Origin: Lentimicrobiaceae bacterium
Lineage (GTDB): Bacteria; Bacteroidota; Bacteroidia; Bacteroidales; JAGNHN01
Length of the DNA stretch: 64,000 nucleotides
Reading direction: 5' to 3'
Assembly: GCA_018001695.1 (NCBI GenBank)
Contig: JAGNHN010000001.1
Span: 8,226 to 72,225, forward strand
Shown: positions 18,382 to 57,611 of the stretch, in pieces
Layout: each line of letters begins with the position of its first letter
Numbering within the stretch: position 1 is the first letter of the stretch
Notes under the pieces: model-generated
The model's database searches: none
What the model saw: the letters and a program-made list of their open reading frames with translations, nothing else
Told to the model about the DNA's origin: nothing
Position numbers and translations under genes: made by a program

Positions 18382-18490
18382 ATTCATGCAGATTAGTTGT
18401 ATGTACATCCATTTTGCCTGCCAGATTGACGTCTTCATGGAGATCTCTCATCCCTGATACAGACGATGGCAAATCAGCCTTAAATGTATA

Positions 18491-44866: not shown

Positions 44867-47068
44867 ATGAAAACATCTACACGCATTGCTTTCTTTTTGT
44901 TGCTGCTGGCAGTAAACAGCCTGCTTTGCCAGGGGCAACTGCGGTTCGCTGAAACCAGCGATTTGCCTGGCATTTCCAGCTTCATGCATGCAAACCAGGC
45001 ATCAGAAGTGGATCCTAACGCCCTTCCGGACGCACGACAAACAGGAAACCAGGAAGCCATCTGGGATATTCAGTTTGCCTTTCCACTGGACACCATCCTC
45101 GGTACGGTTGGCCTCGCAGGCGCTGAAACCAATGGTACCTACTTCATGGCGACGCATTGGGGCAGCGCCGGCACCAAAAATATTTACCGTCTTACTATGG
45201 CCGGTGTATTTGTTGACAGCATCGTTCCGACCTGGATTACAACGAGTACCAGTGGTCTCAGAGACCTGGCCTGGGACGGGTATTATTTTTATGGGTCCGA
45301 TGTAACTACAACCATTTATTGTTTCAACCAGAGTGGCACCCTCATAAATACCATCACTTCTCCTGTGGCTGCACGTGCCATCGCTTATGATGAAGTGAAT
45401 GATGCCTTCTGGGTCAATAATTTTGCCACAACACTCACCCTCATCAGCCGGACAGGAACAACCCTGAACACCATTACGACCCCTCCCAGTATGTATGGCT
45501 GTGCCTATGATAATGTCACACCAGGTGGTCCCTTTCTCTGGATCTTCACAGGAACCAGCACTGGTGGTGGCTGTCAGATCCAAAAATATGTCATCGCCAC
45601 CAAAACCCTGACAACGGTTAACCACAGCGTGAGCGGAGATTTCGGTGCCGCCTCCATTGCAGGTGGTTTATTCTCCCACCCGAATATCGTTCCAGGGAAG
45701 TACACCGTTGGTGGTCTGGCACAAGGGTCCTTGAAGCTGTTTGGTTATGAAGTGGGTAGTACGGGAACGCTGCCACCCAATGACCTTGGTGTTTCTGCTA
45801 TCGTATCTCCCGTATCCGGCATCCTCACCAATGCCGAACAGGTCAAGGTCTCGGTAAACAATTTTGGCACGGCTGCCCAATCAAACTTTACGGTGAGTTA
45901 TAAAGTCGGGACAGGCACAACTGTGACGGAGACCGTCACAGCCAGTGTTGCTTCCGGTGCCACGTATGACCATACGTTTGCCCAGACGGTGGACATGAGC
46001 GCCTCAGGTGCTACATACGTTATCAAGGCATGGACCAATCTTACCAGCGATACAGTTCATAGTAATGACACCACGACCAAATCCGTTACCAACTACTCCA
46101 CGACAACACCATGGGGAATACAGTTCCAATATCCGGCTGCTACAACCACCTTGGGGGTTGGACTGGCCGGTGCGGAGTGGAACGGCACGCATTTCTTTGT
46201 GGCAGAATGGGGCTCTGCAGGCAATCGCAAGGTCTTTAAGCTGAATGTGAATGGTACCCTTGCCGGGCAATTTACACCCACCTGGATTCCAGGCACTTCA
46301 GGACTACGTGACCTTGCTTTTGATGGCCTGTATTTGTATGGATCCGATGTCACCAATACCATTTATTGCTTCGATGCTACAGGCAACATCGTGAACACCA
46401 TCACCTCACCCGTAGCGGTAAGGGCCATTGCCTATGATGAGCTCAGCGATGCCTTCTGGGTCAATAACTTTTCGACCGACATTACCCTTGTCAGCCGTGC
46501 GGGTGCCATCCTCAATGTCATCGGAACACCTCCCAGCATCTATGGACTGGCCTATGATAACGTAACCAGCAACGGTCCTTATCTCTGGCTTTTCTCAGGA
46601 ACCACATCCGGAGCAGGCTGCCAGGTAGAGCAATTTAAGATCTCGACCGGAACAGCCACCGGAGTTACTCACAGCGTATCAGGAGATTTTGGCGCCGCTG
46701 CCATTGCAGGAGGCTTGTTCTCGGCCACAGACATTGTCCAGGGAACTTTCACCCTTGGTGGATTGGCCCAGTCTACACAAATCCTGTTCGGATATTTTAT
46801 TGATATGGTTACAGGTAAGCCTTATCAGCCTGTACAGGAGATTTCGCTGGAAGTATATCCTAACCCGGTATCGGATCAGCTCTTCATCCGTTCTGACCAA
46901 AGCCTGACCAGGGTTGAACTATACAACCAGCAAGGACAGAGACTTTTGCATCGTGATGTTACCGGAAAACAGGCTTCCCTGGATGTTCAGACGCTCAGCA
47001 GTGGTGTCTACTTTGTGCGCATCGAAACAGCGAAAGGCAACATTACGAAAAAGATCAGTCTGCATTAG
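44867..47068 (+). CDS. T9SS type-A cargo protein: two copies of an unassigned ~231-aa module flanking a CARDB-like domain
   Basis: 733 aa with a signal peptide (FFLLLLAVNSLLCQGQ). Module copies span aa 65-296 and 415-645. A CARDB-like segment is NDLGVSAIVSP...NNFGTAAQSNF. The CTD is LEVYPNPVSDQLFI...GVYFVRIETAKG. Confidence 0.75.
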   Translation: MKTSTRIAFFLLLLAVNSLLCQGQLRFAETSDLPGISSFMHANQASEVDPNALPDARQTGNQEAIWDIQFAFPLDTILGTVGLAGAETNGTYFMATHWGSAGTKNIYRLTMAGVFVDSIVPTWITTSTSGLRDLAWDGYYFYGSDVTTTIYCFNQSGTLINTITSPVAARAIAYDEVNDAFWVNNFATTLTLISRTGTTLNTITTPPSMYGCAYDNVTPGGPFLWIFTGTSTGGGCQIQKYVIATKTLTTVNHSVSGDFGAASIAGGLFSHPNIVPGKYTVGGLAQGSLKLFGYEVGSTGTLPPNDLGVSAIVSPVSGILTNAEQVKVSVNNFGTAAQSNFTVSYKVGTGTTVTETVTASVASGATYDHTFAQTVDMSASGATYVIKAWTNLTSDTVHSNDTTTKSVTNYSTTTPWGIQFQYPAATTTLGVGLAGAEWNGTHFFVAEWGSAGNRKVFKLNVNGTLAGQFTPTWIPGTSGLRDLAFDGLYLYGSDVTNTIYCFDATGNIVNTITSPVAVRAIAYDELSDAFWVNNFSTDITLVSRAGAILNVIGTPPSIYGLAYDNVTSNGPYLWLFSGTTSGAGCQVEQFKISTGTATGVTHSVSGDFGAAAIAGGLFSATDIVQGTFTLGGLAQSTQILFGYFIDMVTGKPYQPVQEISLEVYPNPVSDQLFIRSDQSLTRVELYNQQGQRLLHRDVTGKQASLDVQTLSSGVYFVRIETAKGNITKKISLH
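45059..45754 (+). repeat. Copy 1 of unassigned ~231-aa protein module (IWDIQF...FGYEV)
   Basis: Aligns end to end with copies 2 and 3. By eye, more than half the positions are identical (not counted). Shared blocks are GLAGAE, WGS(A/S)G, SGLRDLA(W/F)DG, Y(C)F, TSPVAxRAIAYD, DAFWVNNF, TPPSxYGxAYDNV, GP(F/Y)LW(I/L)F, HSVSGD(F/L)GA and IAGGLFS. Confidence 0.85.
46109..46801 (+). repeat. Copy 2 of unassigned ~231-aa protein module (PWGIQF...FGYFI)
   Basis: Same conserved blocks as copy 1, within the same gene. Confidence 0.85.
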
Positions 47069-47296: not shown

Positions 47297-50200
47297 ATGA
47301 GAACGATTACCAGATTTGCAAAGGTAGCGGCCTTATTCCTCCTGGTTCCTTTCATTGGATTGGCACAGCAGAACAATGCTGAATCCAGTGATCTGGCGCC
47401 GGATGTAAAAAAGGCCAGAATGCAGGTAAATGCAGGAGATTACGATGGCAAAGCCCAGATTGGTACAATGGTTATGCAGGATTTAGGCTTGTTGCAGCCG
47501 AATGCATATTGCACCGCCAGTGCTGTATGTGATGAGTACATCAGCAATGTGACTGTTGGTACCATTAATAACACAACAATGTGTACATCAGGTGGCTATC
47601 ACGATTACACCTCCATCAGTACAACCATGACTGTCGGACAGTCCTACCCAATTTCGGTCAGTAACGGCAATGCCTATACAGGCGACCAATGCGGCATCTG
47701 GGTTGACTGGAATCAGAATGAAGATTTCACAGACGATGCCCCGATCACTGTTGTGGGTACCCCTGGCGGCGGACCTTACACTGCTACCATCACTCCTCCG
47801 ACAGGTGCCGCTCCCGGCTCAACCAGGATGCGCGTCCGTATTATGTATACCGGCACCCTTTCTCCTTGCGGTGCTACCGATTATGGTGAAACAGAAGACT
47901 ATACCATCGTGATTCCGGGTGGCGCAACCACCGATGTGGGTGTGGTTTCTACCACCCTTCCTTCCGTTGCCGGTCCGGGTACCATTACACCGGAAGCCAC
48001 CGTTCGTAACTTTGGTTCAGTTGTTCAGACCTTCACGGTCACGCTGACCATTGGTACTTATACCAGCACCCAGACGGTGACTGCCCTGGCTCCATATACC
48101 AATAGTACTGTCACTTTTGCCCCCTGGACGGCTGCTATTGGCAATTACAACGCTGTGATCAATACAACCCTCACCGGTGATGTGAATAGTAGCAATGATA
48201 CCCTGACAAAGGCCATTGCTATTCAGGCACTGCAGCAGGTATATGCTTACAATGCTTACGACCCAAGCAGTACCCTCGTAGAAGGCCCAGTGAAATTCAG
48301 CATCCAGACTCCGGGTAATATTACATTACTGGCCGCCACTACCTCCAATGACTTCCTGTCGGCAGGTACCTGGGCCAACAATACTTGGTATGGTGCAGAA
48401 TACAGCGCTAGCAATGCTGGTTTGCTTTACACCATTAATACGACAACCGGTGCCCTCACAACCATTGGCAATACCAACCAGAGCCTGACCGGTCTGGCAT
48501 ATGATCCCGTAACAGCCATCATGTACGGCGCCAATGCAACCAGCCTCTACACTGTCAACCTTACCACCGGTGCTACAACCCTCGTGGGCTCCTTCGGATT
48601 GACAGGAACGATGATCGCACTGGCATACAAGGTGAATGGTGGCGTCCTTTACGGCATCAACCTGGATGACAATCTTTATGTCATTAATAAAGCAACCGGT
48701 GCTGCTACGCTTGTTGGCCCACTCGGTATCAATATCAATTATGCTCAGGATGCAGAGTTTGATAACAACAACGGCATTCTCTATCTAGCCGGTTATACCA
48801 CCACTGGTGGCCTTTATACTGTGAATACGACAACAGGGACTGCAACCCTGGTCGGTGCTTTCACCGGTGGCGCAGAAATCACCTGCTTTGCCATTCCTTA
48901 CACCTACACAGCACCTGGTGTGGATGTCGGTATTTCCAGTATTATCAAGCCAAACAGCGGCTACAACCTGACCAGCGATACGGTGAAGGTGGTTGTGAAC
49001 AACTATGGAACCACTGCCCAGAGCAATATCCCGGTTTCCTACAAGATTAACAACGGCACACCGGTCACACAGACGATCGCAGCCAGCATCGCCCCCGGTG
49101 CCAACTACACCCATTCATTCACAACCCTGGCCAACCTGAGTACACCCGGATCCTATGTGATCAAGGCCTACACCGGTCTATCCACGGATGCCAACCCGCT
49201 CAACGATACGGCCACCAAGACCGTGCAGCATCTCACCCCGACCACGATTCCTTTCCTGGAAAACTGGACAAGTGGTGTATTCACGACCAATGCCTGGTCT
49301 TTCGACGCCACACAAGGTAACTGGACCATCAGTTCTACTGCTGGTAACCCGACACCTTCTGCACAGTTTGGCTGGAGTCCGCAAGTCACGAACTACTCAC
49401 ATTCTCTGGTAAGCACACTCCTGAGTCCGGGTTCAGCCACCAGTGTGACATTGAAATATGACCTGATGCTGGTTGATTATGGCAATACAGGTCTCGAAAA
49501 ATTGGATGTGGATGTATGGAATGGTACTACCTGGACGACCCTGGCAACCTACACCAACATTGCCGACATAGCCTGGACAACCTATACGCACAACATCACT
49601 ACTTCTGCGCTTCCGGGACCGTTCAAGGTGAGATTCAGGGCCTATGGCGCCGACAGCTATGAAATAGACTACTGGTACATCGACAACATCCAGATCTATC
49701 AGCAGACTTTGGCTACCCTGAGTGGCACTGTTACTGCCCTGGCAGGTGGTGCTCCGATTGCCGGTGCCATTGTCACCGCAGCAGGCGCCACAACCGTTAG
49801 TGCTACAACTACTGCAACAGGCACGTATACCCTCAGCCTGGATGCCGGAACCTATAATGTAACTTGTGCTGCCCCCGGTTATAATCAGGCCAGTGCAACG
49901 GGTGTTGTCGTCAGTGGCGCCACCACGCAGAACTTCGCTATGACGGCTCCGGTTATGGCTGTAACACCTACCAGTGTGACAACAGCCATGTCGCCGTTCC
50001 AGACACCCTCCACGCATACAGTGACCATCAATAACACGGGTAATGGTCCGCTGAACTGGAATGCCAATGTTTTGAGCAAGGGTGAAGCCTCCAAGGCTAT
50101 GTGGGATCTGCAGTTTGTCATCAACGCCGACTCCATCACCGGTGGTGTAGGTCTCGCCGGCGCAGAATTCGACGGCGTCAACTTCTGGGCTGCCGAATGG

Positions 50201-51232
50201 GGATCAAGTGGCAATAAAAAGGTCTTTAAGGTCAGTCCGGCCGGCGCATTGCTCTCTTCGATCACAACCACCTGGTTGCCAGGTACCGCTGGTTTACGCG
50301 ACCTGGCCTTCGACGGCACTTATCTTTATGGGTCACCTGCCAATACTACCCTGTATTGCTTCGACCTGAACGGAAACCTGGTGAACACAACAACCAGCCC
50401 TGTCGCCATTCGCGCCATCGCCTATGACGATGTAAATGACGCATTCTGGGTAAATAACTTTGCTACAGATATGACGTTGATTTCACGTACCGGTGCTGTT
50501 CTCAATGTCATCGCCACACCGCCCAGCTGTTATGGCGCTGCTTATGACAATGTCTCTCCGGGTGGTCCCTTCCTCTGGATCTTTAGTGGAACGACGGCAG
50601 GTGCAGGTTGCCAGATCCAGCAGTATAACCTCAATACCGGCGTTCTGACTGCTGTGACACACAGCGTTAGTGGTGATCTGGGTGCTACAGCCATCGCTGG
50701 TGGTCTGTTCTCCCACCCCAATATCATCCCAGGTACTTATACCGTTGGTGGTATTGCACAGGGTCCTCAGGATATCTTCGGATATGAAGTGGCTACCGTC
50801 TCCAACTGGCTGTCTGCCAATCCTCTAAGCGGAACTATCCCGGCAGGTGGCAATGGTACCATCACACTGACGATCAATCCTTCGGGCATCGCCCCAGGAA
50901 CGATAAAGACTGGCAAACTCCTGGTTACCCCCACCCCCAGTGTTGGTGTGGATACGGTCAATATTACCCTCGATGTGATCGTTGGCAGGGAAGAGATCAT
51001 TTCCAATGGCCTCAGAATATTCCCGAACCCCGCTACCGATATGGTCTATATCCAGGCTGACAATGAGATCAGGATGGTGCGTATGATCAACTACGCAGGT
51101 CAGGTGATCAGCGAAAGCCAGGTCAGGGCTAACGAAACCTCGATCAATACTAGTGCGCTGCGTTCCGGAATTTATTTCCTCCAGATCGAAACAGCACAGG
51201 GTATGATGATTGAACGGATCACGGTCCGGTAG
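47297..51232 (+). CDS. Large mosaic T9SS type-A cargo protein (GEVED, CARDB-like x2, propeller-like, choice-of-anchor-J/MAM-like, CarboxypepD_reg-like, unassigned module, CTD)
   Basis: 1311 aa with a signal peptide (LFLLVPFIGLAQQ). The GEVED signature is WVDWNQNEDF...RMRVRI...GETEDYT. CARDB-like segments are present (VRNFGSV..., VNNYGTTAQSNI...). The motif LYT(I/V)NxTTGAxTxxG repeats. A CarboxypepD_reg-like segment reads LSGTVT...AG..GTYTLSLDAGTYNV. The third module copy spans aa 935-1165. The CTD is IFPNPATDMVYI...GIYFLQIETAQG. Confidence 0.75.
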   Translation: MRTITRFAKVAALFLLVPFIGLAQQNNAESSDLAPDVKKARMQVNAGDYDGKAQIGTMVMQDLGLLQPNAYCTASAVCDEYISNVTVGTINNTTMCTSGGYHDYTSISTTMTVGQSYPISVSNGNAYTGDQCGIWVDWNQNEDFTDDAPITVVGTPGGGPYTATITPPTGAAPGSTRMRVRIMYTGTLSPCGATDYGETEDYTIVIPGGATTDVGVVSTTLPSVAGPGTITPEATVRNFGSVVQTFTVTLTIGTYTSTQTVTALAPYTNSTVTFAPWTAAIGNYNAVINTTLTGDVNSSNDTLTKAIAIQALQQVYAYNAYDPSSTLVEGPVKFSIQTPGNITLLAATTSNDFLSAGTWANNTWYGAEYSASNAGLLYTINTTTGALTTIGNTNQSLTGLAYDPVTAIMYGANATSLYTVNLTTGATTLVGSFGLTGTMIALAYKVNGGVLYGINLDDNLYVINKATGAATLVGPLGININYAQDAEFDNNNGILYLAGYTTTGGLYTVNTTTGTATLVGAFTGGAEITCFAIPYTYTAPGVDVGISSIIKPNSGYNLTSDTVKVVVNNYGTTAQSNIPVSYKINNGTPVTQTIAASIAPGANYTHSFTTLANLSTPGSYVIKAYTGLSTDANPLNDTATKTVQHLTPTTIPFLENWTSGVFTTNAWSFDATQGNWTISSTAGNPTPSAQFGWSPQVTNYSHSLVSTLLSPGSATSVTLKYDLMLVDYGNTGLEKLDVDVWNGTTWTTLATYTNIADIAWTTYTHNITTSALPGPFKVRFRAYGADSYEIDYWYIDNIQIYQQTLATLSGTVTALAGGAPIAGAIVTAAGATTVSATTTATGTYTLSLDAGTYNVTCAAPGYNQASATGVVVSGATTQNFAMTAPVMAVTPTSVTTAMSPFQTPSTHTVTINNTGNGPLNWNANVLSKGEASKAMWDLQFVINADSITGGVGLAGAEFDGVNFWAAEWGSSGNKKVFKVSPAGALLSSITTTWLPGTAGLRDLAFDGTYLYGSPANTTLYCFDLNGNLVNTTTSPVAIRAIAYDDVNDAFWVNNFATDMTLISRTGAVLNVIATPPSCYGAAYDNVSPGGPFLWIFSGTTAGAGCQIQQYNLNTGVLTAVTHSVSGDLGATAIAGGLFSHPNIIPGTYTVGGIAQGPQDIFGYEVATVSNWLSANPLSGTIPAGGNGTITLTINPSGIAPGTIKTGKLLVTPTPSVGVDTVNITLDVIVGREEIISNGLRIFPNPATDMVYIQADNEIRMVRMINYAGQVISESQVRANETSINTSALRSGIYFLQIETAQGMMIERITVR
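50099..50791 (+). repeat. Copy 3 of unassigned ~231-aa protein module (MWDLQF...FGYEV)
   Basis: Same conserved blocks, located in the adjacent 1311-aa gene. Confidence 0.85.
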
Positions 51233-51299: not shown

Positions 51300-51377
51300 C
51301 ACTTAATGCCAGCATTCCATATTTTACGTTTGCACCTAAACTAGTCCCAAGCCTTCCTCTACTTGCGGGCAGTTGCG

Positions 51378-51385
51378 TATCTTTG
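51378..51385 (+). promoter_or_regulatory. -7 box (TATCTTTG) upstream of ABC-F gene
   Basis: Exact match, 11 nt upstream of the ATG at 51397. A second exact match (TACGTTTG) lies at 51325-51332. Confidence 0.4.
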
Positions 51386-51396
51386 CCGCCAGTCCT

Positions 51397-53349
51397 ATGT
51401 ATTCAATCAGCAACCTTTCGGTCCACTTCGGCGGAGAATACCTCTTCGAGGATGTTAGTTTTATTATCAATCCCCGTGACAGGATCGGCCTGGTCGGGAA
51501 GAACGGTGCCGGAAAAACAACCCTGCTTCGATTGCTAACCGGGGAAATGCGCCCGGAAGAAGGCAACATCATGATACCAAGTGGCAGGACCATTGGTTAC
51601 CTGCCCCAGCAAATCCGGATTACAAGCCAGTCAACCGTGATCGAAGAAGCCAGGAAAGCTTTTAAGGAGACCCTGGACCTGAAAGCAGAAATAGATGCAA
51701 TCGGCATATCTATCAGCCTGCGTAACGACTTTGAGACCCCTGCTTACCATGCACTCATAGATCGCCTGCACCATCTGACAGAGCGATACCAGCTGTTGGG
51801 AGGGCAATCACTGGATGCCGATGTGGAAAGAACGTTAACAGGGCTGGGTTTCAAGAGCGAAGAAATGGACCGGCCCATGCAAACCTTTAGCGGAGGCTGG
51901 CAAATGCGGGTAGAGCTGGCGAAGATCCTGCTGCGAAGGCCCGATCTGCTTCTGCTGGATGAGCCCACCAACCACCTGGACATCGAATCCATCCAATGGC
52001 TGGAAGGATTTCTGACCAACTACCCAGGGGCTGTCATCCTCGTCTCTCACGACCGTGCCTTCCTTGATAATATTACAAACAGGACGATCGAAATCACGAA
52101 TGGCAAGGTTTACGATTTCAAGGCGTCCTATTCTGACTATGTGGAGCAACGACAGGCCATGCTGGAACAACAACTGGCCACATATTCAAACCAACAAAGA
52201 GAAATAGCGCAGATTGAGCGCTTTATAGAGCGGTTCAGGTACAAGAACACCAAGGCCAGACAGGTGCAATCCAGGATTAAGATGCTGGAAAAGATGGAAA
52301 GGGTTGAGATCGATGACTTTGACCTCTCTGGCATTCAATTTCGTTTTCCACCTGCACCCAGGTCAGGCCGGGTCGTTTTTGAGGCACACCATCTTACCAA
52401 GCGCTACGGTGACAAACTTGTAATCGACAACCTGGATCTGAGTATCGAGCGCAATGATTTCGTCGCCTTTGTTGGCAGGAATGGAGAAGGAAAGACGACA
52501 TTGTCGAGGATCATCGTTGGCGAACTGGAACACGATGGCCATGCAAAGCTTGGCCACGAGGTCAGGATAGGTTACTATGCCCAGAATCAGGCCGAACTGC
52601 TGAACGAGGAGAAAACGGTGTTTCAGACCATCGATGAGGTTGCCATGGGTGATATGCGCCCCAAGGTCCGCGGATTGCTGGGTAACTTTCTCTTCAGTGG
52701 AGATGATATCGAGAAAAAAGTGAAAGTGCTGTCCGGTGGGGAACGCAGCCGGCTCGCCCTGGCCAGGATGTTGCTCGAACCCGTTAACCTGCTGGTTCTT
52801 GATGAGCCAACCAATCACCTGGATATGCGCTCCAAGGATATCCTCAAGAACGCGCTTTTGCAATATGACGGAACGCTGGTCATAGTATCCCATGACCGGG
52901 ATTTCCTGCAAGGTCTGACCAATAAGGTCTTTGAATTCAAAGACAAGAAAATCCGAACATGGATAGGAGATATTTATGACTTTCTGGAAGCAAGGAAACT
53001 GAGCCATCTGTCTGAGCTGGAAAGAGTTACAGCGCAGCGTAATACTTCCGCTCCGGAAAACCCCTCCGTTCAGAAAGAAAGAAGGGAAAAGAAGAAAGAC
53101 CATGAAAGGGCCCTGCGTAAAATTCAGACCCAGCTCGAAAAGATTGAGAAACGCATCGCTGCTGTTGAGGCAGAATTAGCCGTTATGGATTTGAAACTAG
53201 CCGAGCCGGAGGCCTGGGGCCCGGAAGTTCATTCAGTGCTCTTCTACGAGAACTATGAACGGTTAAGAAAAGAAAACGAAAGCCTGATGGCAGAATGGGC
53301 GCTAGCAGCAGAGCAGCTGGAAGCACATCAACGCACCGGGGAATTCTAG
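51397..53349 (+). CDS. ABC-F family ATPase (no membrane domain)
   Basis: Two ABC cassettes. Walker A motifs are GKNGAGKTT and GRNGEGKTT; signatures are FSGGWQMR and LSGGERSR. A C-terminal coiled-coil tail follows. The start MYSISNLSVHFGG at 51397 has TATCTTTG 11 nt upstream. Confidence 0.93.
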   Translation: MYSISNLSVHFGGEYLFEDVSFIINPRDRIGLVGKNGAGKTTLLRLLTGEMRPEEGNIMIPSGRTIGYLPQQIRITSQSTVIEEARKAFKETLDLKAEIDAIGISISLRNDFETPAYHALIDRLHHLTERYQLLGGQSLDADVERTLTGLGFKSEEMDRPMQTFSGGWQMRVELAKILLRRPDLLLLDEPTNHLDIESIQWLEGFLTNYPGAVILVSHDRAFLDNITNRTIEITNGKVYDFKASYSDYVEQRQAMLEQQLATYSNQQREIAQIERFIERFRYKNTKARQVQSRIKMLEKMERVEIDDFDLSGIQFRFPPAPRSGRVVFEAHHLTKRYGDKLVIDNLDLSIERNDFVAFVGRNGEGKTTLSRIIVGELEHDGHAKLGHEVRIGYYAQNQAELLNEEKTVFQTIDEVAMGDMRPKVRGLLGNFLFSGDDIEKKVKVLSGGERSRLALARMLLEPVNLLVLDEPTNHLDMRSKDILKNALLQYDGTLVIVSHDRDFLQGLTNKVFEFKDKKIRTWIGDIYDFLEARKLSHLSELERVTAQRNTSAPENPSVQKERREKKKDHERALRKIQTQLEKIEKRIAAVEAELAVMDLKLAEPEAWGPEVHSVLFYENYERLRKENESLMAEWALAAEQLEAHQRTGEF

Positions 53350-53351
53350 CG

Positions 53352-54251
53352 TCAGGGCTGCACCACCGGTGCTTCAACCACCTGCAAAATCCGGTAATTA
53401 CTAGTCTGATATACAAAGGCTACAATATGACATTGTTTTGGCATATTGGCCTCCGGCAGGTCATACCTGAAGGTGTGTATCTTACGGGTACCGGTGACCA
53501 GGAGACTGTCTGCCGAAGCAATACTGTTTCCCCATGAACTGGTCAGGGCATGTCGTAGCACATGCATATGGGTGTATTCGAGGATATCCGGCACTGGTCC
53601 GATCTGAGGATTATTGTTTTTCTGAGGTGATACCAGGCTATCTTCGGTCATCACCACGACAAGGTTTAGCGCCTCCTGCATGTCTGATAGCCAGGTGGTT
53701 CTGACATGCGCACATAATTTCCGTTCTGAATCCGTATAATCAGTTATGAGCTGCATACTCAGCTTTGGCGTCTGCTGCATTTCATCCTGGATCCTGCCTG
53801 CCCAGTTCGCGGGCCCTACAATGTGGGTCTGCGCATATCCCGTTCTGTTCACCATCCCGTTTGGGTTACCGACATTACTGATACCAAAGGTCTGGTCCCA
53901 GGCATCACCTGCCGGGGTGGTATAATCGGTTGTATAAGGCGCACTCCCGAAAGTGGCAAACCAACCGGCATGGATGGTCAGCACAATTAAACGGTTGCCC
54001 CACTGGGCCTGCAGATCATGGGCCAATTTGGCGGCTTCAGGGCAGTTTGGACATTTGTGCCCGGTGTAATCCTCAAGTAAAACATATTGCAGCGCAGGAC
54101 CAGGATCAGGAAATACCGGGACGGGGCATGCTGAAGTGTCAGGAGGCGGCGTCACGCCATCCCGCAGGTAAGGCTCCTCGATGACATCACAGGATGTCCA
54201 TGTCAGGATGAAAACAAGCAGTATCAATATGTGCGAATGCAATGCTCTCAT
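53352..54251 (-). CDS. Omp28-related thioredoxin-fold lipoprotein with CxxC
   Basis: 299 aa with a lipoprotein signal (LVFILTWTSC). The motif YTGHKCPNCP fits the Omp28-family layout. It lies 12 nt downstream of the beta-barrel gene. Confidence 0.68.
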   Translation of the reverse strand: MRALHSHILILLVFILTWTSCDVIEEPYLRDGVTPPPDTSACPVPVFPDPGPALQYVLLEDYTGHKCPNCPEAAKLAHDLQAQWGNRLIVLTIHAGWFATFGSAPYTTDYTTPAGDAWDQTFGISNVGNPNGMVNRTGYAQTHIVGPANWAGRIQDEMQQTPKLSMQLITDYTDSERKLCAHVRTTWLSDMQEALNLVVVMTEDSLVSPQKNNNPQIGPVPDILEYTHMHVLRHALTSSWGNSIASADSLLVTGTRKIHTFRYDLPEANMPKQCHIVAFVYQTSNYRILQVVEAPVVQP

Positions 54252-54263
54252 GGTCAGGTTGGC

Positions 54264-55967
54264 TTAAAATGAACTGCTGATGGTAAGGGTCAGGCCACTG
54301 GATGCCGGAACGTTACGGCATATTCCTCCCACACAAAGGATACCTTCCCGCTGACGTCCGTAGCTCAGACTGATGCGGTTGGTATTCCGGATATAGCCGA
54401 AACCGAAGGTGTAGTAGTGATAAGTATTATCGCTGACCGGGTTATTGAAATTATATTGATCTGAGACAGAAAAGAACCAGCTGGGAGCGACAGCATATTC
54501 AAGGGTCGCAGCAACCCAGTTTCCGGAGTCCTGCTGTGTGGCAAGAAATTCAAGCTCCAGGCGCAGGCTTTTCTTATCAGAGATTTTCTGCGTAATGTCC
54601 AATACGCCAATATGCGCCTTATAAAACACATGCCCGTCTTCAATGCCTTCCTCTATCACGTCAAAATTATAATCGAGATACGTATACTGTGCGCTTATCT
54701 TTAAGGCAGGACTTAGTTTTCTACTGATTTCCAGTGTAATATCCTCAAAGTACTTGGTTTTTCCGAAGCGAAAGAAATCAGAGGTATATCCCAGGGTTCC
54801 TTTTTGGTTGATGGGGATGGTATCATGGATTGCCTTCTTATCAATACCATGCACCAGGCCATATTGCAGGCTGACACTGGTTCCGTATTTACCTCCTAAT
54901 CTTGTCTTTTTGGGGATGGTATAGATGATCTGACCCGTGATCCCCATTTCACCATTAGGTTGTGTTGCATACGGATACATGGCAGCCAGGCTATAGGTAT
55001 GCTGCTTTGTGATTGTAGGTAAATAATTTATTTCCAATGCATTGCCAACCTCAGTTCGGCGGGATTTATAACTGAAATTATCTACCCGCTTGGCGGATAC
55101 CAGGATTCCAAGTCCTTTCTGGGAGTATGCGGCAGAGAGTATCGCAGCCCGTCCATCCCTATAGATGTATTTGTTCTGTGCCGAGGGGTCGTTGACTTTC
55201 CAGGCATACTCTCCATTGAGGTTCAACCGCCCTCTGGTGAGGACAAAGCGACCGGCCATGGCGCCCACGTTTTCAGGCATCTTGTACTCTATAATGGTCG
55301 GATCATCCCTTTCGTACTTTGAAACAAAACTACCACCCAGGCTCAGTTGCGTCTTGCTATCCTGCCAACCCTTTACAAGCGTGTTGAGGGAGAATTCCCC
55401 ATCCAATCCGCGTACGATGCCGCGACGCTTGGGCTCATCAAGGTAGGATTGCCAATAATAACGCTGGGTTCCATAAATGCTTTTCAGACTGATTCCCGGA
55501 ACCGGATCAAAGCGCACGCGGACGCCGTCCATGGCATTGTCATATCCCAGGTTCCACTCGTCATAACTTCTGAAAACCAATCCACTCCCAAACTGATCAT
55601 AAAAGTTACCCAGGGTTATATCAAAGGCATCTTTACGGTATGAAATGAACCTGTTTGCAATTCCCTGCCCTTCCCACGCATCCTCATATCCTGTGAGCGG
55701 TTTAAGAAAGGCCTCATAGCGGATTCCGGCGGAAAAATCGCCACGGGTATAATTGATTTTGGCGAAGGCATTCATACCGGCCTTCTTACCCTGGAGATCC
55801 GATTCGGTGATACCGATGGTGCTGTCAGGTTGATAGGCCTGAACATCCATCTGAAAACTACCGCTAATGGTGCCTTTTTCGGAGGTTTCCTGACCCATCG
55901 CATCATGTGACGGAAAACCAAGCATAAGCAAAGTCGCTAAAACAGGCGCAAGGTATAGATGCTTCAT
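54264..55967 (-). CDS. Putative outer-membrane beta-barrel protein (DUF6029-like)
   Basis: 567 aa with a signal peptide (...SHDAMGQ). It shows an alternating amphipathic strand pattern, is rich in Y/G/N, and ends with a C-terminal Phe (...LTISSSF), typical of OM barrels. Confidence 0.6.
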   Translation of the reverse strand: MKHLYLAPVLATLLMLGFPSHDAMGQETSEKGTISGSFQMDVQAYQPDSTIGITESDLQGKKAGMNAFAKINYTRGDFSAGIRYEAFLKPLTGYEDAWEGQGIANRFISYRKDAFDITLGNFYDQFGSGLVFRSYDEWNLGYDNAMDGVRVRFDPVPGISLKSIYGTQRYYWQSYLDEPKRRGIVRGLDGEFSLNTLVKGWQDSKTQLSLGGSFVSKYERDDPTIIEYKMPENVGAMAGRFVLTRGRLNLNGEYAWKVNDPSAQNKYIYRDGRAAILSAAYSQKGLGILVSAKRVDNFSYKSRRTEVGNALEINYLPTITKQHTYSLAAMYPYATQPNGEMGITGQIIYTIPKKTRLGGKYGTSVSLQYGLVHGIDKKAIHDTIPINQKGTLGYTSDFFRFGKTKYFEDITLEISRKLSPALKISAQYTYLDYNFDVIEEGIEDGHVFYKAHIGVLDITQKISDKKSLRLELEFLATQQDSGNWVAATLEYAVAPSWFFSVSDQYNFNNPVSDNTYHYYTFGFGYIRNTNRISLSYGRQREGILCVGGICRNVPASSGLTLTISSSF

Positions 55968-56000
55968 GCAGCAGATATATTTATTAATGTATCAGCAGTC

Positions 56001-56516
56001 TTAATGCTTGCCGATGTCTTCACCTTTCTTCAGCTTTCTAACGAGTGCGATCAACTCCAGCTCACTGCCCTCGGCAAATGAAGTGTGTTGCCAGACAATT
56101 TCTCCTTTACCGTCAATCAAAAACGTATGGGGGATGGCGTTCACATTCATGGCCCGTTTGAATTCACTGTTGGCATCCAGCAGGACCTCGTACTCCCAAC
56201 CCTTACCGTTTACCGTCGGCCCAACCCGTGAAGATGAACGGGAGTCATCAATGGACACGGCGATAAGCTTCACACCGGTTTCCTCTACCCATTCATCATA
56301 TACTTCTGCGATAGTGGAAAGTTCCCTCATACACGGTTTACACCATAATGCCCAGAAGCTGAGAATAATAGGATTACCATCGTTGCTGAGATGACTGGAA
56401 TTGACCGTTTTCCCATCCAGCGTTTTGAGATCAACGGAAGGGAGTTTATTGACGGTTTCCTGTGCAGTTAGCCATAAAGGAATAATCAATGCGCTGATAA
56501 TCAATAACTTTTTCAT
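56001..56516 (-). CDS. TlpA/ResA-like periplasmic thiol:disulfide oxidoreductase
   Basis: The signal peptide MKKLLIISALIIPLWLTAQ sets the start at 56516. The active site FWALWCKPC is a WCxxC motif in a thioredoxin fold. Confidence 0.85.
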   Translation of the reverse strand: MKKLLIISALIIPLWLTAQETVNKLPSVDLKTLDGKTVNSSHLSNDGNPIILSFWALWCKPCMRELSTIAEVYDEWVEETGVKLIAVSIDDSRSSSRVGPTVNGKGWEYEVLLDANSEFKRAMNVNAIPHTFLIDGKGEIVWQHTSFAEGSELELIALVRKLKKGEDIGKH

Positions 56517-56633
56517 ATTTGCCTGTATCAATAGATGGACATGGTATAATATCAAATCCTGCGCCAAACTTAATGAAAATCAAGGGACCGTGTCAGGAAA
56601 ACTGCAGCGGTTCAATATCCGGAGATAAGAAAA

Positions 56634-57611
56634 TTACAGATGCACCTCTATCAACCTGGCCGCTGGCAAAGGAACCAGCGTCAGTTCCTGCATCATCGCC
56701 GGAACCAATACGAGATCCCCCATCTGCAGTCTTACATTCCCCCCTTGATACCGGCACTCAACCTGTCCTTGTGTACACAGATATACCACGCATGAGTCCA
56801 TCTCGCCCAGATCCTTCTCAACCGGTCTGTCAAACTGTATCATGGCTGTACTGAAATGTGCATTGGATGTCAGCCGGACGGTTTCATTCAGTTTCTGCGG
56901 GTATGCTGTTTTTAAACTTGATGTTTGCTTGTAATCAATGGCATCCAAAGCGAGATCAATGTGTAAATCCCTCATTCTTCCATCCTTACCCGGTCTATTC
57001 CAGTCATAAACACGGTAGGTGATATCCGCTGCCTGTTGTATTTCGGCAAGTAAAATCCCCGGTCCCAGGGCATGAACCCGCCCAGGCGGGATGTCGAATA
57101 CATCCCCTGCCTGTACATCAACATACTGCAGGTAATCTTGTAACTTATTGTCCTGGAGTGCTTTCAGAAAGATTTCCGGAGTAATATCTTCCTTGAATCC
57201 ATTGATAAGGCGGGCCCCGGGTTCAGCATGAACCACATACCACATCTCTGCTTTTCCAGAGCTGGCATGACGCTGACGGGCCAGCGCATCTCCGGGGTGC
57301 ACCTGGATGCTGAGGTAATCATTGGCATCGATGAACTTACACAACAGGGGAAATTCATCTCCATATGATTCGTATATCCTCTCCCCAACCAACTCATCCA
57401 TAAATACCTCCACCAACTCGGCCAGGGTATTACCGGCAAGCCTTCCGGATTTCACCTCCGACTCACTGCCCGGCAATGCCGAAAGTAGCCATACCTCCCC
57501 ACAATCGATCAATGGACGAAAGTCCTTCCCAAGTATGGTATGGATCTTATTTCCGCCCCACACCTTTTCCTTGAAAACATCCTTGAACGTCAAAGGATAC
57601 AGCATCTCCAT
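56634..57611 (-). CDS. manA: Class I mannose-6-phosphate isomerase
   Basis: 325 aa. Motifs VWGG...GE.WL, LSIQVHPGD and AEMWYV, in a cupin fold. Confidence 0.85.
   Translation of the reverse strand: MEMLYPLTFKDVFKEKVWGGNKIHTILGKDFRPLIDCGEVWLLSALPGSESEVKSGRLAGNTLAELVEVFMDELVGERIYESYGDEFPLLCKFIDANDYLSIQVHPGDALARQRHASSGKAEMWYVVHAEPGARLINGFKEDITPEIFLKALQDNKLQDYLQYVDVQAGDVFDIPPGRVHALGPGILLAEIQQAADITYRVYDWNRPGKDGRMRDLHIDLALDAIDYKQTSSLKTAYPQKLNETVRLTSNAHFSTAMIQFDRPVEKDLGEMDSCVVYLCTQGQVECRYQGGNVRLQMGDLVLVPAMMQELTLVPLPAARLIEVHL

What the first reader, a model, noticed from the sequence alone, without database searches (positions are those of the whole stretch)
53352..56516. Tight three-gene operon: periplasmic TlpA-like reductase, DUF6029-like OM beta-barrel, Omp28-like CxxC lipoprotein
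Three minus-strand genes are separated by only 33 and 12 nt:
- a signal-peptide thioredoxin-fold protein with WCKPC
- a 567-aa predicted OM barrel ending in Phe
- a lipoprotein (LTWTSC lipobox) with a thioredoxin-like HKCPNCP motif

Two of the three components therefore carry redox-active CxxC motifs and flank a barrel. The arrangement suggests an envelope thiol-redox module. For example, a barrel-lipoprotein complex could present or export a redox-active lipoprotein, fed with electrons by the TlpA-like protein.

As far as I know, no function has been established for the barrel family or for this gene combination.
Basis: partly seen in the sequence, partly recalled or inferred. Interest (0 to 1): 0.55.

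Follow-up and report, generated by a model that had tools for sequence, protein, structure and literature searches.

The report
Conserved outer-membrane thiol-redox gene trio
Three tightly packed genes encode a periplasmic disulfide reductase, a large outer-membrane barrel and a probably surface-exposed thioredoxin-like lipoprotein; the trio is kept together across Bacteroidota, including next to the secretion regulator porA in the gum pathogen Porphyromonas gingivalis, and probably handles cysteine chemistry at the cell surface, but its function has never been tested.

Summary
Three minus-strand genes are separated by 33 and 12 nt. They encode a TlpA/ResA-like reductase (WCKPC), a DUF6029 barrel and an Omp28-family lipoprotein (HKCPNCP).

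The trio is kept together in about 50 of 62 related loci, and almost every exception is a contig cut off beside the barrel. It occurs in two gene arrangements. One locus carries a full-length DsbD immediately downstream.

It is the counterpart of P. gingivalis PG2175 (PDB 2m72), PG2174 and Omp28/PG2173 (PDB 2r2c), which lie just upstream of porA.

What is new here:
- All three proteins carry conserved cysteine pairs. The barrel has a C-x4-C hairpin in 129 of 130 divergent family members.
- The barrel model has about 24 strands and matches no characterised family.
- The lipoprotein has a DUF1223-type thioredoxin fold plus a beta-sandwich, and carries a surface-export signal.
- In a third of loci the neighbours are T9SS surface proteins with cysteine pairs: PorA-like, Omp28-module or thioredoxin-domain proteins.

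My best reading (confidence 0.45) is a barrel-surface-lipoprotein complex that does thiol-disulfide chemistry at the cell surface. TlpA, recharged by DsbD, would supply the reducing power. The mechanism is inferred, not shown. No published function was found for the combination.

The parts
56001..56516 (-). Gene 1: a secreted TlpA/ResA-type thioredoxin-fold thiol:disulfide reductase of 171 aa. It has a signal peptide with an A|Q cleavage-type site, so it is probably soluble in the periplasm.
   Evidence: Pfam AhpC-TSA 1.4e-21 and Redoxin 2.6e-17. The best NCBIfam hits are ResA, StoA and DsbE, all below their equivalog cut-offs. It is about 60% identical to PDB 2m72 over 144 residues, E 7e-53. 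It is the most conserved of the three proteins, with a median 58% identity.
56331..56345 (-). The WCKPC active-site motif of gene 1 (Cys59 and Cys62, the only cysteines in the protein).
   Evidence: W-C-x-[PN]-C is conserved in all 42 orthologues from the loci and in the divergent loci.
55968..56000 (.). A 33-nt spacer between gene 1 and the barrel gene.
   Evidence: The median spacer in 43 orthologous loci is 30 nt. No terminator-like site was found in 53100-56800.
54264..55967 (-). Gene 2: a DUF6029 outer-membrane beta-barrel of 567 aa with a signal peptide and a C-terminal Phe. The model has about 24 strands and no plug domain.
   Evidence: PF19494, 601.7 bits. The AlphaFold2 model has pLDDT 88.2 and pTM 0.82, with 24 long strands by DSSP. 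Foldseek against the PDB finds only generic barrels; the best TMq values, 0.43-0.47, are to the FimD/PapC ushers. There is no PDB sequence relative.
54318..54335 (-). CVGGIC: the barrel's only two cysteines (Cys545 and Cys550). They lie on a short hairpin between the last two membrane strands. By strand parity this is the last extracellular loop.
   Evidence: The pair is invariant in 48 of 48 orthologous C-termini. It is present in 129 of 130 full-length representatives of the whole family at the 50% identity level. The hairpin 542-546/549-553 appears in the DSSP string. The side of the membrane is inferred from topology only.
54951..55079 (-). A long, highly conserved, confidently modelled loop (residues 297-339, ...LPxxTKQHxYSLAAMYPYATQPNG). 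It is probably folded into the barrel lumen.
   Evidence: The invariant residues P317, Y325, Y331, P332, Y333 and G339 come from alignment A1. pLDDT is 85-91 across the loop although it has no regular secondary structure. The position in the lumen is an inference.
54252..54263 (.). A 12-nt spacer between the barrel gene and the lipoprotein gene.
   Evidence: The median spacer in 45 orthologous loci is 17 nt.
53352..54251 (-). Gene 3: an Omp28-family lipoprotein of 299 aa. It consists of a lipobox, an acidic export signal, a flexible linker, a thioredoxin-fold domain with CxxC, and a beta-sandwich.
   Evidence: NF033782 159.9 bits against a cut-off of 150; PF11551 2e-24. The AlphaFold2 model has pLDDT 93.6. 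The best PDB fold match is the two-domain DUF1223 protein 2axo (E 5e-10, 265 aligned columns). Next is the Omp28 C-terminal domain, 2r2c (sequence E 7.7e-11).
54168..54206 (-). Lipobox LTWTSC (lipidated Cys21), followed by DVIEEPY, an acidic lipoprotein-export-signal-like motif.
   Evidence: The orthologue consensus is C-D-K-[IV]-[ED]-E-P-[YF]. 89 of 105 sequences have at least 2 acidic residues within the six positions after the Cys. This is the criterion for surface exposure used in PMC12578637 and PMC5080379. Divergent orthologues have canonical SDD-type signals.
54039..54059 (-). HKCPNCP: the CxxC (Cys67 and Cys70) at the N-terminus of helix 70-87 of the thioredoxin-fold domain.
   Evidence: C67 and C70 are invariant in 62 aligned homologues, together with E60, T63, G64, H94 and P130, the likely cis-Pro. 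The CxxC is also invariant in 45 locus orthologues and is present in P. gingivalis Omp28.

Best explanation
This is the local copy of a three-gene envelope module found across the phylum Bacteroidota. In P. gingivalis the same module is PG2175 - PG2174 - Omp28/PG2173.

Proposed mechanism:
- Gene 1 makes a soluble periplasmic TlpA/ResA-type disulfide reductase. It would be recharged from the cytoplasm by a DsbD/CcdA protein encoded elsewhere.
- Gene 2 makes a plug-less outer-membrane barrel of about 24 strands. Its only cysteines form a C-x4-C hairpin in the last outward-facing loop.
- Gene 3 makes a lipoprotein with a Bacteroidota surface-export signal, a flexible linker, a catalytic-type thioredoxin fold (CxxC plus a probable cis-Pro) and a beta-sandwich.
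- Barrel and lipoprotein most likely form a stable barrel-surface-lipoprotein complex. That complex would carry out thiol-disulfide exchange at the outer face of the outer membrane. TlpA would supply or reset its reducing equivalents from the periplasmic side, either through the barrel or during assembly.
- The likely clients are cysteine-pair-bearing surface proteins. PorA-like, Omp28-module and thioredoxin-domain T9SS cargo proteins are repeatedly encoded beside the module.

Shown here: the gene structure, the family memberships, conservation of the trio and of all cysteine pairs, the predicted folds, the export signal, and the recurrent neighbours.

Inferred: that the proteins form a physical complex, that the lipoprotein is surface-exposed, the direction of electron flow, the route across the membrane, and the identity of the clients.
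For: 1. The trio is conserved.
- 43 of 49 barrel-anchored loci have TlpA upstream and 45 of 49 have Omp28 downstream. Exceptions are mostly contig ends. Spacers are short.
- Loci found through TlpA relatives also carry it: the P. gingivalis-type contigs, a common gut Bacteroidales, P. crevioricanis and others.
- Three divergent lineages keep all three families in a different, divergent arrangement.
- Clustering of all neighbouring ORFs shows that only these three genes are universal.

2. There is a link to the reducing pathway. In L059 a full-length DsbD (DsbD_N, DsbD_TM, Thioredoxin_7) follows Omp28 on the same strand. The TlpA motif W-C-x-P-C is reductase-type.

3. Cysteine pairs are invariant in all three proteins. 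NCBIfam also holds an 'Omp28-related selenoprotein' family, to which the query is weakly similar. Selenocysteine in place of cysteine is typical of catalytic redox sites.

4. The lipoprotein has a thioredoxin fold with the CxxC at a helix N-terminus and an invariant Pro130. Its whole two-domain fold matches DUF1223 (PDB 2axo).

5. Surface exposure is likely.
- Acidic export signal.
- The lipoprotein evolves fastest. Identity runs TlpA > barrel > Omp28 in 32 of 34 loci.
- P. gingivalis Omp28 is recognised by patient IgG and has been described as a surface adhesin/receptor.
- Stable surface-lipoprotein-barrel complexes are common in this phylum (PMC12578637).

6. The barrel is large, has no plug domain, and matches no characterised family.

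7. The neighbours are surface proteins with cysteine pairs: PorA-like in 17 of 56 loci, Omp28-module T9SS cargo in 7-9, and thioredoxin-domain (WCGPC) T9SS cargo in 2.

8. A surface thioredoxin in the same phylum has measured activity: HBP35.
Against: - No complex prediction or experiment links the three proteins physically.
- TlpA is periplasmic, while the lipoprotein CxxC and the barrel's Cys hairpin are predicted to lie on the outer side. No thiol relay across an outer membrane is known.
- The two long conserved loops (residues 123-145 and 297-339) may fill the lumen.
- The barrel's Cys pair could be only a structural staple.
- Accessory T9SS neighbours occur in only about a third of loci. 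There are none in this window or among its closest relatives.
- DsbD adjacency was seen in one locus only, and no CcdA/DsbD gene lies in the 64-kb window.
- In P. gingivalis the four PorA cysteines are not needed for its signalling role (PMC12152298).
- Schleiferia thermophila (L039) has the barrel, with its Cys pair, but neither partner next to it.
- The conserved His65 and His94 near the CxxC would also suit metal binding.
Confidence: 0.45

Rival explanations
1. Redox-capture uptake channel. The surface lipoprotein would bind a thiol-reactive nutrient or toxic species through its CxxC and nearby histidines. Candidates include a metal ion, selenium or sulfur species, or a disulfide compound. 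The barrel would let it diffuse in, and periplasmic TlpA would release or reduce it. This would resemble other Bacteroidota surface-lipoprotein-barrel uptake complexes, but without TonB.
For: - Barrel-surface-lipoprotein pairs in this phylum are mostly uptake machines (PMC12578637).
- His65 (nearly invariant) and His94 (invariant) lie next to the CxxC.
- A selenoprotein relative exists.
- TlpA-Sco pairs in copper delivery are an established precedent for a TlpA-type reductase serving a thioredoxin-fold metal binder (my own knowledge, not tested here).
Against: - No inner-membrane transporter, TonB plug, metal or sulfur-metabolism gene recurs near the trio; only the three genes are universal.
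- The recurrent extra neighbours are secreted surface proteins, not transport or assimilation genes.
Confidence: 0.2
2. Dedicated export or anchoring route. The DUF6029 barrel would be the pore or docking site that brings its own lipoprotein to the cell surface and, where present, PorA-like proteins. TlpA would keep their cysteines reduced and export-competent in the periplasm. In P. gingivalis this would be the unexplained T9SS-independent path of PorA to the surface.
For: [quoted passage not shown]
- porA lies directly after Omp28 in P. gingivalis-type contigs.
- PorA-like genes sit next to the trio in 17 of 56 loci, in two arrangements.
- The barrel's best fold matches are 24-strand ushers, which pass folded Ig-like subunits. 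PorA-N has a FimH-like Ig fold.
Against: - This window and most loci have no PorA-like gene nearby.
- PorA has a T9SS C-terminal domain and binds PorV, and its discoverers now think a T9SS route also exists.
- The usher similarity is weak (TM<0.5), and no usher plug, chaperone or pilin genes are present.
- This reading does not explain an invariant catalytic-type CxxC in the lipoprotein.
Confidence: 0.15
3. Loose association of ordinary parts. TlpA would be a general periplasmic reductase, for example for cytochrome c maturation. The barrel would be a porin with a structural disulfide. Omp28 would be an adhesin or receptor whose CxxC is structural. On this reading they are merely co-transcribed.
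For: - Omp28 has only been described as a surface adhesin/receptor and antigen.
- The nearest NCBIfam model to TlpA is ResA.
- No phenotype has been reported for any of the three genes.
Against: - The adjacency persists across orders and in two gene arrangements.
- Cysteine pairs are invariant in all three proteins, in a protein class (outer-membrane barrels) that rarely has cysteines.
- The TlpA-like protein falls well below the ResA, DsbE and TlpA equivalog cut-offs.
- There is DsbD adjacency and there are neighbours with thioredoxin modules.
Confidence: 0.1

Closest known systems
Porphyromonas gingivalis PG2175 (PDB 2m72) - PG2174 - Omp28/PG2173 (PDB 2r2c), upstream of porA/PG2172 (PDB 6kjk)
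   Same: Same three families in the same order and strand. The TlpA-like protein is about 60% identical to 2m72 (E 7e-53). The Omp28 lipoprotein has the same CxxC context (EEFTGQKCLNCP). The barrel has the same C-x-G-G-V-C hairpin.
   Different: P. gingivalis has porA immediately downstream. This window instead has a convergent ABC-F gene ending 2 nt away, and no PorA-like gene within 64 kb. The PG locus numbers for 2m72 and PG2174 come partly from my memory. They agree with (PG2173 = Omp28; PG2172 = PorA). None of the three has a demonstrated function.
MtrCAB porin-cytochrome conduit (PDB 6r2q)
   Same: Three-part logic encoded together: a periplasmic redox protein, a large outer-membrane barrel and a surface redox lipoprotein. 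MtrB is among the top Foldseek hits (E 3.3e-9, TMq 0.39).
   Different: No CxxCH haem motifs in any of the three proteins. The redox centres would be thiols. The barrel has about 24 strands rather than 26. There is no sequence relationship, and the fold hit is generic.
Bacteroidota surface-lipoprotein-barrel complexes (SusCD, BtuBG and similar)
   Same: A barrel gene is paired with a lipoprotein gene that carries the acidic export signal.
   Different: No TonB-dependent plug or receptor domain. The lipoprotein is a thioredoxin-fold CxxC protein rather than a ligand-binding lid. A periplasmic reductase is part of the unit.
DsbD/CcdA -> TlpA/ResA/CcmG periplasmic reducing pathways
   Same: Thioredoxin fold, secreted, W-C-x-P-C motif, and Pfam Redoxin/AhpC-TSA membership. 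A DsbD gene is adjacent in one lineage.
   Different: Scores are far below the ResA, DsbE and TlpA equivalog cut-offs. The partners encoded with it are outer-membrane proteins, not cytochrome maturation, Sco or Msr proteins.
DUF1223 (PDB 2axo, Agrobacterium protein AGR_C_4864)
   Same: Same two-domain fold, a thioredoxin-like domain with CxxC plus a beta-sandwich: Foldseek E 5e-10, 265 columns, TMt 0.65. There is a weak Pfam hit. DUF1223 is classed in the thioredoxin clan (PMC3091736).
   Different: The sequence score is below the Pfam cut-off (25 against 30.7). DUF1223 proteins are not Bacteroidota lipoproteins, and their function is also unknown.
HBP35, the T9SS-anchored surface thioredoxin of P. 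gingivalis
   Same: It is a precedent for an active thioredoxin-motif protein on the Bacteroidota cell surface. Similar T9SS thioredoxin-domain proteins lie next to the trio in L041 and L054.
   Different: HBP35 is a T9SS cargo protein, not a lipoprotein, and is not encoded in this cluster. Its electron source is not established either.
FimD/PapC chaperone-usher pores
   Same: These give the best TM-scores to the barrel model (0.43-0.47), and they have 24 strands.
   Different: No plug, N-terminal or C-terminal usher domains, and no chaperone or pilin genes. The similarity is at the level of 'large barrel' only.

Membership tests
Omp28 family outer-membrane lipoprotein (NCBIfam NF033782, Pfam PF11551) | Profile score above the curated cut-off | tested here: met
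   NF033782 scores 159.9 bits against a cut-off of 150, covering residues 8-297. PF11551 scores 86.8 bits against 34.9.
Omp28 family outer-membrane lipoprotein (NCBIfam NF033782, Pfam PF11551) | Signal peptide with a lipobox cysteine | tested here: met
   LTWTSC with Cys21. The cysteine is invariant in alignment A2.
Omp28 family outer-membrane lipoprotein (NCBIfam NF033782, Pfam PF11551) | C-terminal beta-sandwich as in the solved Omp28 domain (PDB 2r2c) | tested here: met
   phmmer E 7.7e-11 over residues 112-294. Foldseek TMt 0.72-0.78.
Omp28 family outer-membrane lipoprotein (NCBIfam NF033782, Pfam PF11551) | N-terminal thioredoxin-like CxxC shared with the type member | tested here: met
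   The P. gingivalis-type Omp28 (NF033782, 312.9 bits) has EEFTGQKCLNCP. The window protein has EDYTGHKCPNCP.
DUF6029 (Pfam PF19494) | Full-length profile match above the cut-off | tested here: met
   601.7 bits against a cut-off of 27. Residues 10-567 match profile positions 10-538 of 538.
DUF6029 (Pfam PF19494) | Family hallmark found here: a C-x-G-G-[VI]-C hairpin about 20 residues before a C-terminal aromatic residue | tested here: met
   CVGGIC at residues 545-550, with terminal Phe567. The pair is present in 129 of 130 family representatives.
TlpA/ResA/DsbE-type periplasmic thiol:disulfide reductases | Thioredoxin-fold Redoxin/AhpC-TSA domain with a CxxC and a secretion signal | tested here: met
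   AhpC-TSA 77.1 bits, Redoxin 63.4 bits. WCKPC. The N-terminal signal-like segment MKKLLIISALIIPLWLTA|Q is read directly from the sequence.
TlpA/ResA/DsbE-type periplasmic thiol:disulfide reductases | Equivalog-level identity with ResA, DsbE/CcmG or rhizobial TlpA | tested here: not met
   ResA 77.4 bits against a cut-off of 170. DsbE 47.3 against 123. TlpA 36 against 230. It belongs to the superfamily but is not any of the named enzymes.
TlpA/ResA/DsbE-type periplasmic thiol:disulfide reductases | Electron supply from DsbD/CcdA | tested here: inconclusive
   No DsbD/CcdA gene lies in the window. A full-length DsbD is adjacent to the trio in L059 only.
DUF1223 (Pfam PF06764) | Profile score above the cut-off | tested here: not met
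   25.0 bits against a cut-off of 30.7.
DUF1223 (Pfam PF06764) | Two-domain fold of PDB 2axo | tested here: met
   Foldseek E 5.2e-10, 265 aligned columns, TMt 0.65. It is the top hit.
Porin-cytochrome (MtrCAB-type) trans-outer-membrane conduit | Multihaem CxxCH motifs in the periplasmic and surface partners | tested here: not met
   No CxxCH motif in any of the three proteins.
Porin-cytochrome (MtrCAB-type) trans-outer-membrane conduit | The periplasmic partner is inserted in the barrel and contacts the surface lipoprotein | not testable with these tools
TonB-dependent transporter with surface lipoprotein (SusCD-like) | Plug domain, TonB box and TonB_dep_Rec barrel | tested here: not met
   The only Pfam hits to the barrel at E<=0.1 are DUF6029 and a weak DUF2490 hit.
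TonB-dependent transporter with surface lipoprotein (SusCD-like) | Partner lipoprotein with an acidic export signal | tested here: met
   C-DVIEEP has 3 acidic residues in six positions. 89 of 105 orthologues have at least 2.
OPX-coupled polysaccharide export porin (the only published suggestion for DUF6029, PMC9603273) | Synteny with OPX/Wza and polysaccharide assembly genes | tested here: not met
   No such genes lie in the window. None are among the recurrent neighbours in 49 loci.
Chaperone-usher pore | Usher plug and N- and C-terminal domains; chaperone and pilin genes | tested here: not met
   No such Pfam domains in the barrel and no such neighbours. TM-scores are only 0.43-0.47.
T9SS cargo | C-terminal sorting domain in any of the three proteins | tested here: not met
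   A CTD profile hits four other ORFs in the window but none of the trio. Pfam shows no Por_Secre_tail domain in them.

The most novel reading that the evidence does not exclude
The trio is a thiol-based counterpart of the MtrCAB conduit, that is, a disulfide relay across the outer membrane.

Reducing equivalents would pass from cytoplasmic thioredoxin through DsbD to periplasmic TlpA. They would then pass through the DUF6029 barrel, possibly by way of its invariant C-x4-C hairpin dipping into the lumen, to the surface lipoprotein Omp28. From there they would reach cysteine-pair proteins displayed on the cell surface: thioredoxin-like T9SS cargo and PorA.

This would explain how surface thioredoxins of Bacteroidota are recharged. 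In P. gingivalis it would also tie control of T9SS expression (PorA-PorXY-SigP), or the T9SS-independent surface route of PorA, to the redox state of the envelope.
Probability: 0.15. Interest if true: 0.9.

Novelty: new variant of a known kind. Interest (0 to 1): 0.62.

Why it matters
Reducing pathways of the bacterial envelope are understood only as far as the periplasm. It is not known how thioredoxin-motif proteins on the cell surface of Bacteroidota, such as HBP35, obtain electrons.

This module is conserved across the phylum. It joins a periplasmic reductase to an outer-membrane barrel and to a surface thioredoxin-fold lipoprotein, and in one lineage it is fused to DsbD. That makes the question directly testable.

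The module is present in P. gingivalis, a genetically tractable pathogen. Two of its three proteins there already have solved structures, and Omp28 is a patient-recognised antigen. The cluster lies against porA, whose route to the surface and whose link to T9SS regulation are open problems.

If the module proves to be only an ordinary barrel-lipoprotein pair with a helper reductase, it still assigns a context to DUF6029, which has about 450 clusters (at 50% identity) with E<=1e-30, and to Omp28.

Tried and rejected
- Polysaccharide-export porin. This is the only published idea for DUF6029 (PMC9603273). I rejected it as the main reading because no OPX, Wza or Wzx genes lie near the trio in the window or in 49 loci.
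- TonB-dependent or SusCD-like transporter. There is no plug or TonB domain.
- Relation to Paraprevotella clara 00502, an 'Omp28-related' protein needed for trypsin degradation. That protein is a WD40 plus Ig-like T9SS protein, and the paper's main text does not mention disulfide or thioredoxin. It is probably a loose annotation label and tells us nothing about the CxxC module.
- Promoter and terminator scans. Sigma-70-like hits are at or below chance, no terminator-like sites were found, and the Bacteroidota-type TTTG...TAnnTTTG pattern is not present upstream. These scans were uninformative.
- CcdA/DsbD in the window. None was found.
- PorA-like or Omp28-module T9SS genes in the window. None was found within 64 kb.
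- T9SS C-terminal domains as such in the flanks (25 of 53 loci). By my rough estimate of T9SS-cargo gene density, about 20-40% of loci would show one by chance (own estimate, not computed), so this count is not evidence. Only the specific PorA-like, Omp28-module and thioredoxin families are.
- Complex prediction.
- Exact look-up of the window's barrel protein. It is not on record, so the source organism is known only as an uncultured Bacteroidota. The closest relative is MAG RA.bin61, with 70% barrel identity.

Full report

Yes. The minus strand carries three consecutive ORFs.
- 56001-56516: 171 aa from the ATG. The open frame runs on to a TTG at 56567, but all orthologues begin at the MKK... 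start.
- 54264-55967: 567 aa.
- 53352-54251: 299 aa.

The spacers are 33 and 12 nt.

Profile searches confirm the three family labels above curated cut-offs: AhpC-TSA/Redoxin for gene 1, DUF6029 (601.7 bits) for gene 2, and Omp28 (Pfam and the NCBIfam lipoprotein subfamily) for gene 3.

The flanking genes are unrelated housekeeping genes. A phosphomannose-isomerase-like gene lies 117 nt upstream. A convergent ABC-F ATPase ends 2 nt from the lipoprotein's stop codon. The rest of the 64-kb window is ordinary Bacteroidota chromosome and holds no CcdA or DsbD gene.

**2. Is the trio conserved?**

A scan of species-representative genomes with the barrel alone returned 49 loci with 41-70% barrel identity. 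They come from Bacteroidales, Lentimicrobiaceae, Flavobacteriales and unclassified Bacteroidota.
- tblastn found the TlpA-like gene immediately upstream in 43 loci and the Omp28 gene immediately downstream in 45, all on the same strand. Every exception but one is a contig that ends next to the barrel.
- Median spacers are 30 and 17 nt.
- Clustering all ORFs of these loci showed that only these three genes are universal. The next most frequent neighbour, the isomerase-like gene, is in 24 loci.

Entering from the other side gave the same result. Relatives of the TlpA-like protein led to P. gingivalis-type contigs, a very common gut Bacteroidales, P. crevioricanis and two others, and all carry the trio.

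I also looked up six of the weaker-scoring barrel representatives among the 150 listed by a whole-library profile search.
- Three (L057, L061, L062) have all three families in a different layout, with the Omp28 gene or genes divergent from TlpA-barrel.
- One (L059) has the collinear trio followed by a full-length DsbD.
- Two were on contigs too short to judge.

Conservation through a rearrangement is the strongest comparative sign that the three genes work together.

The single clear exception is Schleiferia thermophila, where the barrel stands alone.

**3. The gene products**

*Gene 1.* It is a secreted thioredoxin-fold protein with exactly two cysteines, in W-C-K-P-C. It belongs to the TlpA/ResA/DsbE superfamily but is far below the equivalog cut-offs of each named enzyme. 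It is about 60% identical to the solved but uncharacterised protein 2m72. It is the best conserved of the three, with median identity to the window protein of 58%. The barrel has 49% and the lipoprotein 33%, and this order holds in 32 of 34 loci.

*Gene 2.* The model is confident (pLDDT 88, pTM 0.82).
- It shows 24 long strands and no plug domain.
- Short turns fall at every even-to-odd strand junction. These should therefore be the periplasmic turns, and the long loops should face outwards.
- No solved structure is related by sequence. Foldseek returns only generic large barrels. The highest TM-scores, 0.43-0.47, are to the 24-strand ushers. MtrB, LptD, TonB-dependent receptors and AlgE also appear.
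- The mature barrel has just two cysteines, in C-V-G-G-I-C. They sit on a short hairpin between the last two membrane strands, so by parity they lie in the last extracellular loop.
- This pair is invariant in 48 of 48 orthologues and present in 129 of 130 full-length family representatives.
- The family is moderately large: 449 clusters (at 50% identity) with E<=1e-30.

*Gene 3.* The model is very confident (pLDDT 93.6).
- After the lipidated Cys21 comes a low-confidence linker. The median distance from the lipid Cys to the CxxC is 37 residues, and the range is 11-53.
- Next is a thioredoxin-like domain, with the CxxC at the N-terminus of helix 70-87.
- Last is a beta-sandwich, which is the part solved as PDB 2r2c.
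- The best whole-protein fold match is the DUF1223 protein 2axo. DUF1223 is classed in the thioredoxin clan.
- C67, C70, E60, H94 and P130 are invariant in 62 homologues. P130 immediately precedes strand 131-134, which is where the cis-proline of thioredoxin-fold oxidoreductases sits. That assignment is an inference.
- NCBIfam also contains an 'Omp28-related selenoprotein' model, to which the query is weakly similar. This is consistent with a catalytic redox site in the wider family.

**4. Which side of the membrane?**

The residues after the lipid cysteine follow the consensus C-D-K-[IV]-[ED]-E-P-[YF]. 89 of 105 sequences have at least two acidic residues in the six positions after the cysteine. 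Divergent orthologues have the canonical SDD-type signals. This is the published signature of surface-exposed lipoproteins in Bacteroidota (PMC5080379, PMC12578637).

Three further points fit surface exposure:
- the lipoprotein diverges fastest of the three proteins;
- P. gingivalis Omp28 is recognised by patient antibodies;
- stable surface-lipoprotein-barrel complexes are common in the phylum.

Surface exposure was not tested here. The almost invariant Pro-Tyr/Phe at positions +7 and +8 goes beyond what the export signal requires and is unexplained.

**5. Link to P. gingivalis and PorA**

A protein 99% identical to 2m72 lies on contigs flanked by P. gingivalis fimbrial genes. It is followed by a DUF6029 barrel, by Omp28 (NF033782, 312.9 bits) and then by a 240-aa protein. 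That fourth protein is PorA (PDB 6kjk, E 2e-79), which is PGN_0123/PG2172.

PorA is a T9SS C-terminal-domain protein whose C-terminal domain binds the sensor kinase PorY and switches on T9SS genes. It can reach the cell surface in mutants that lack the T9SS translocon, by an unknown route (PMC7712824, PMC12152298). Its four cysteines are not needed for signalling.

PorA-like proteins with a conserved C-x3-5-C pair lie next to the trio in 17 of 56 loci, either downstream or divergently upstream. A profile built without the P. gingivalis sequence still finds the PorA N-terminal domain in the PDB (E 4.7e-4).

Two further accessory types recur:
- T9SS cargo proteins of 590-670 aa that carry the same Omp28-type module with a CxxC, in 7-9 loci;
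- T9SS cargo proteins with a thioredoxin/TlpA domain (AVWCGPCW), in 2 loci.

None of these is within this window. T9SS domains in the flanks in general are not above chance. The argument rests on these specific families only.

**6. Most likely mechanism**

My best reading is a barrel-surface-lipoprotein complex that performs thiol-disulfide exchange on the outer face of the cell. A periplasmic TlpA-type reductase serves it, drawing on DsbD. Cysteine-pair surface proteins are the likely clients. I put this at 0.45.

Shown: gene organisation, family membership, conservation of the trio and of all cysteine pairs, the predicted folds, the export signal, the DsbD adjacency in one lineage, and the nature of the recurrent neighbours.

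Inferred: the physical complex, the topology, the direction of electron flow, and how TlpA communicates with groups on the other side of the membrane.

That last point is the main weakness. The two long, conserved, well-ordered loops may occlude the lumen. I could not inspect coordinates or run a complex prediction.

**7. Rival readings**
- A TonB-independent uptake channel in which the lipoprotein captures a thiol-reactive substrate (0.2). It is weakened by the absence of any recurrent transporter or assimilation gene.
- A dedicated export or anchoring route for the lipoprotein and PorA-like proteins, with TlpA keeping them reduced (0.15). It is attractive because of the unexplained T9SS-independent route of PorA and the resemblance of the barrel to ushers. 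It does not explain the catalytic-type CxxC, and most loci have no porA gene nearby.
- A loose association of ordinary parts (0.1). It is hard to reconcile with conservation through rearrangement and with invariant cysteine pairs.

**8. Comparison with known systems, and novelty**

All three proteins belong to catalogued families, and two orthologues have structural-genomics structures. The full-text searches found no function for the barrel family beyond a speculative polysaccharide-porin remark. They found nothing on the gene combination or on the P. gingivalis neighbours of porA.

The module combines two known kinds of system: periplasmic DsbD-TlpA reducing pathways and Bacteroidota barrel-surface-lipoprotein complexes. 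This combination has not been described, so I rate it a new variant of a known kind.

The boldest reading not excluded is a thiol analogue of the MtrCAB conduit. That would be categorically new. I give it 0.15.

**9. Verdict**

Interest is 0.62.

Noticed in passing
L051:4044-4766 (P. gingivalis-type contig); also L022, L030, L052, L055, L056 downstream of Omp28, and L018, L019, L023, L026, L031, L036, L045 upstream: porA, the T9SS regulator ligand (PDB 6kjk), lies directly after the TlpA-DUF6029-Omp28 cluster. PorA-like proteins with a conserved C-x3-5-C pair accompany the trio in 17 of 56 loci. The papers I read on PorA do not mention these neighbours.
   Followed up: partly
L059:7403-9376: A full-length DsbD (DsbD_N, DsbD_TM, Thioredoxin_7) lies immediately downstream of the trio on the same strand in one divergent lineage.
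   Followed up: partly
L039:5953-7698 (Schleiferia thermophila DSM 21410): This DUF6029 barrel keeps the C-x4-C pair but has no TlpA-like or Omp28 gene beside it. It is the only clear exception among loci with enough flank. Whether the partners lie elsewhere in that genome was not checked.
   Followed up: no
L058:189-1745: This is the only one of 130 family representatives that lacks the first cysteine of the barrel pair. It is followed by a PorP/SprF-family gene rather than Omp28. The contig is too short to see what lies upstream.
   Followed up: no
window 54168-54188 and orthologues: Nearly invariant Pro at +7 and Tyr/Phe at +8 after the lipid cysteine (100 and 98 of 105 sequences). This is more conservation than the acidic export signal needs. 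It may be a docking motif.
   Followed up: no
window 53349-53352: The convergent ABC-F ATPase gene (51373-53349, + strand) ends 2 nt from the stop codon of the lipoprotein gene. There is no room for a terminator between them, and none was detected.
   Followed up: partly
window 44867-47068, 47297-51232, 17173-18438 (-), 11710-14325, 27738-28931: Several T9SS cargo genes lie in the window.
- A 733-aa CARDB protein.
- A 1311-aa protein with a GEVED domain.
- A BNR/YCF48-like protein.
- A protein with a CHU_C-type sorting domain.
- A PETase-like hydrolase with a weak sorting-domain hit.

None carries an Omp28 or PorA-like module.
   Followed up: partly
window 74-2755 and 4103-5653 (-): An LptD_2-family protein and an OstA-like/LptD_N protein are encoded near the start of the window. 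They are lipopolysaccharide-transport outer-membrane components and have no connection to the finding.
   Followed up: no
window 14969-15778 (-) and 15785-17137 (-): Adjacent genes for a CCG cysteine-rich-domain protein and a 4Fe-4S dicluster protein. The pair looks like LutAB or a heterodisulfide reductase.
   Followed up: no
L008:7632-8491 and L013:7861-8577: In these two MAGs the Omp28 gene is split or rearranged into two pieces. The cause could be a frameshift, an assembly error or a duplication.
   Followed up: no
window 53430-53432 and 53712-53714: The lipoprotein's beta-sandwich has two further cysteines. Cys274 is present in at least 90% of close homologues, and Cys180 is the consensus residue. 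Both are absent from P. gingivalis Omp28. They may form a structural disulfide specific to this subfamily.
   Followed up: no
window 56634-57611 (-) and 24 of 49 loci: A type I phosphomannose-isomerase-like gene sits just upstream of the TlpA-like gene, on the same strand, in about half of the loci. This is probably lineage synteny rather than part of the module.
   Followed up: partly
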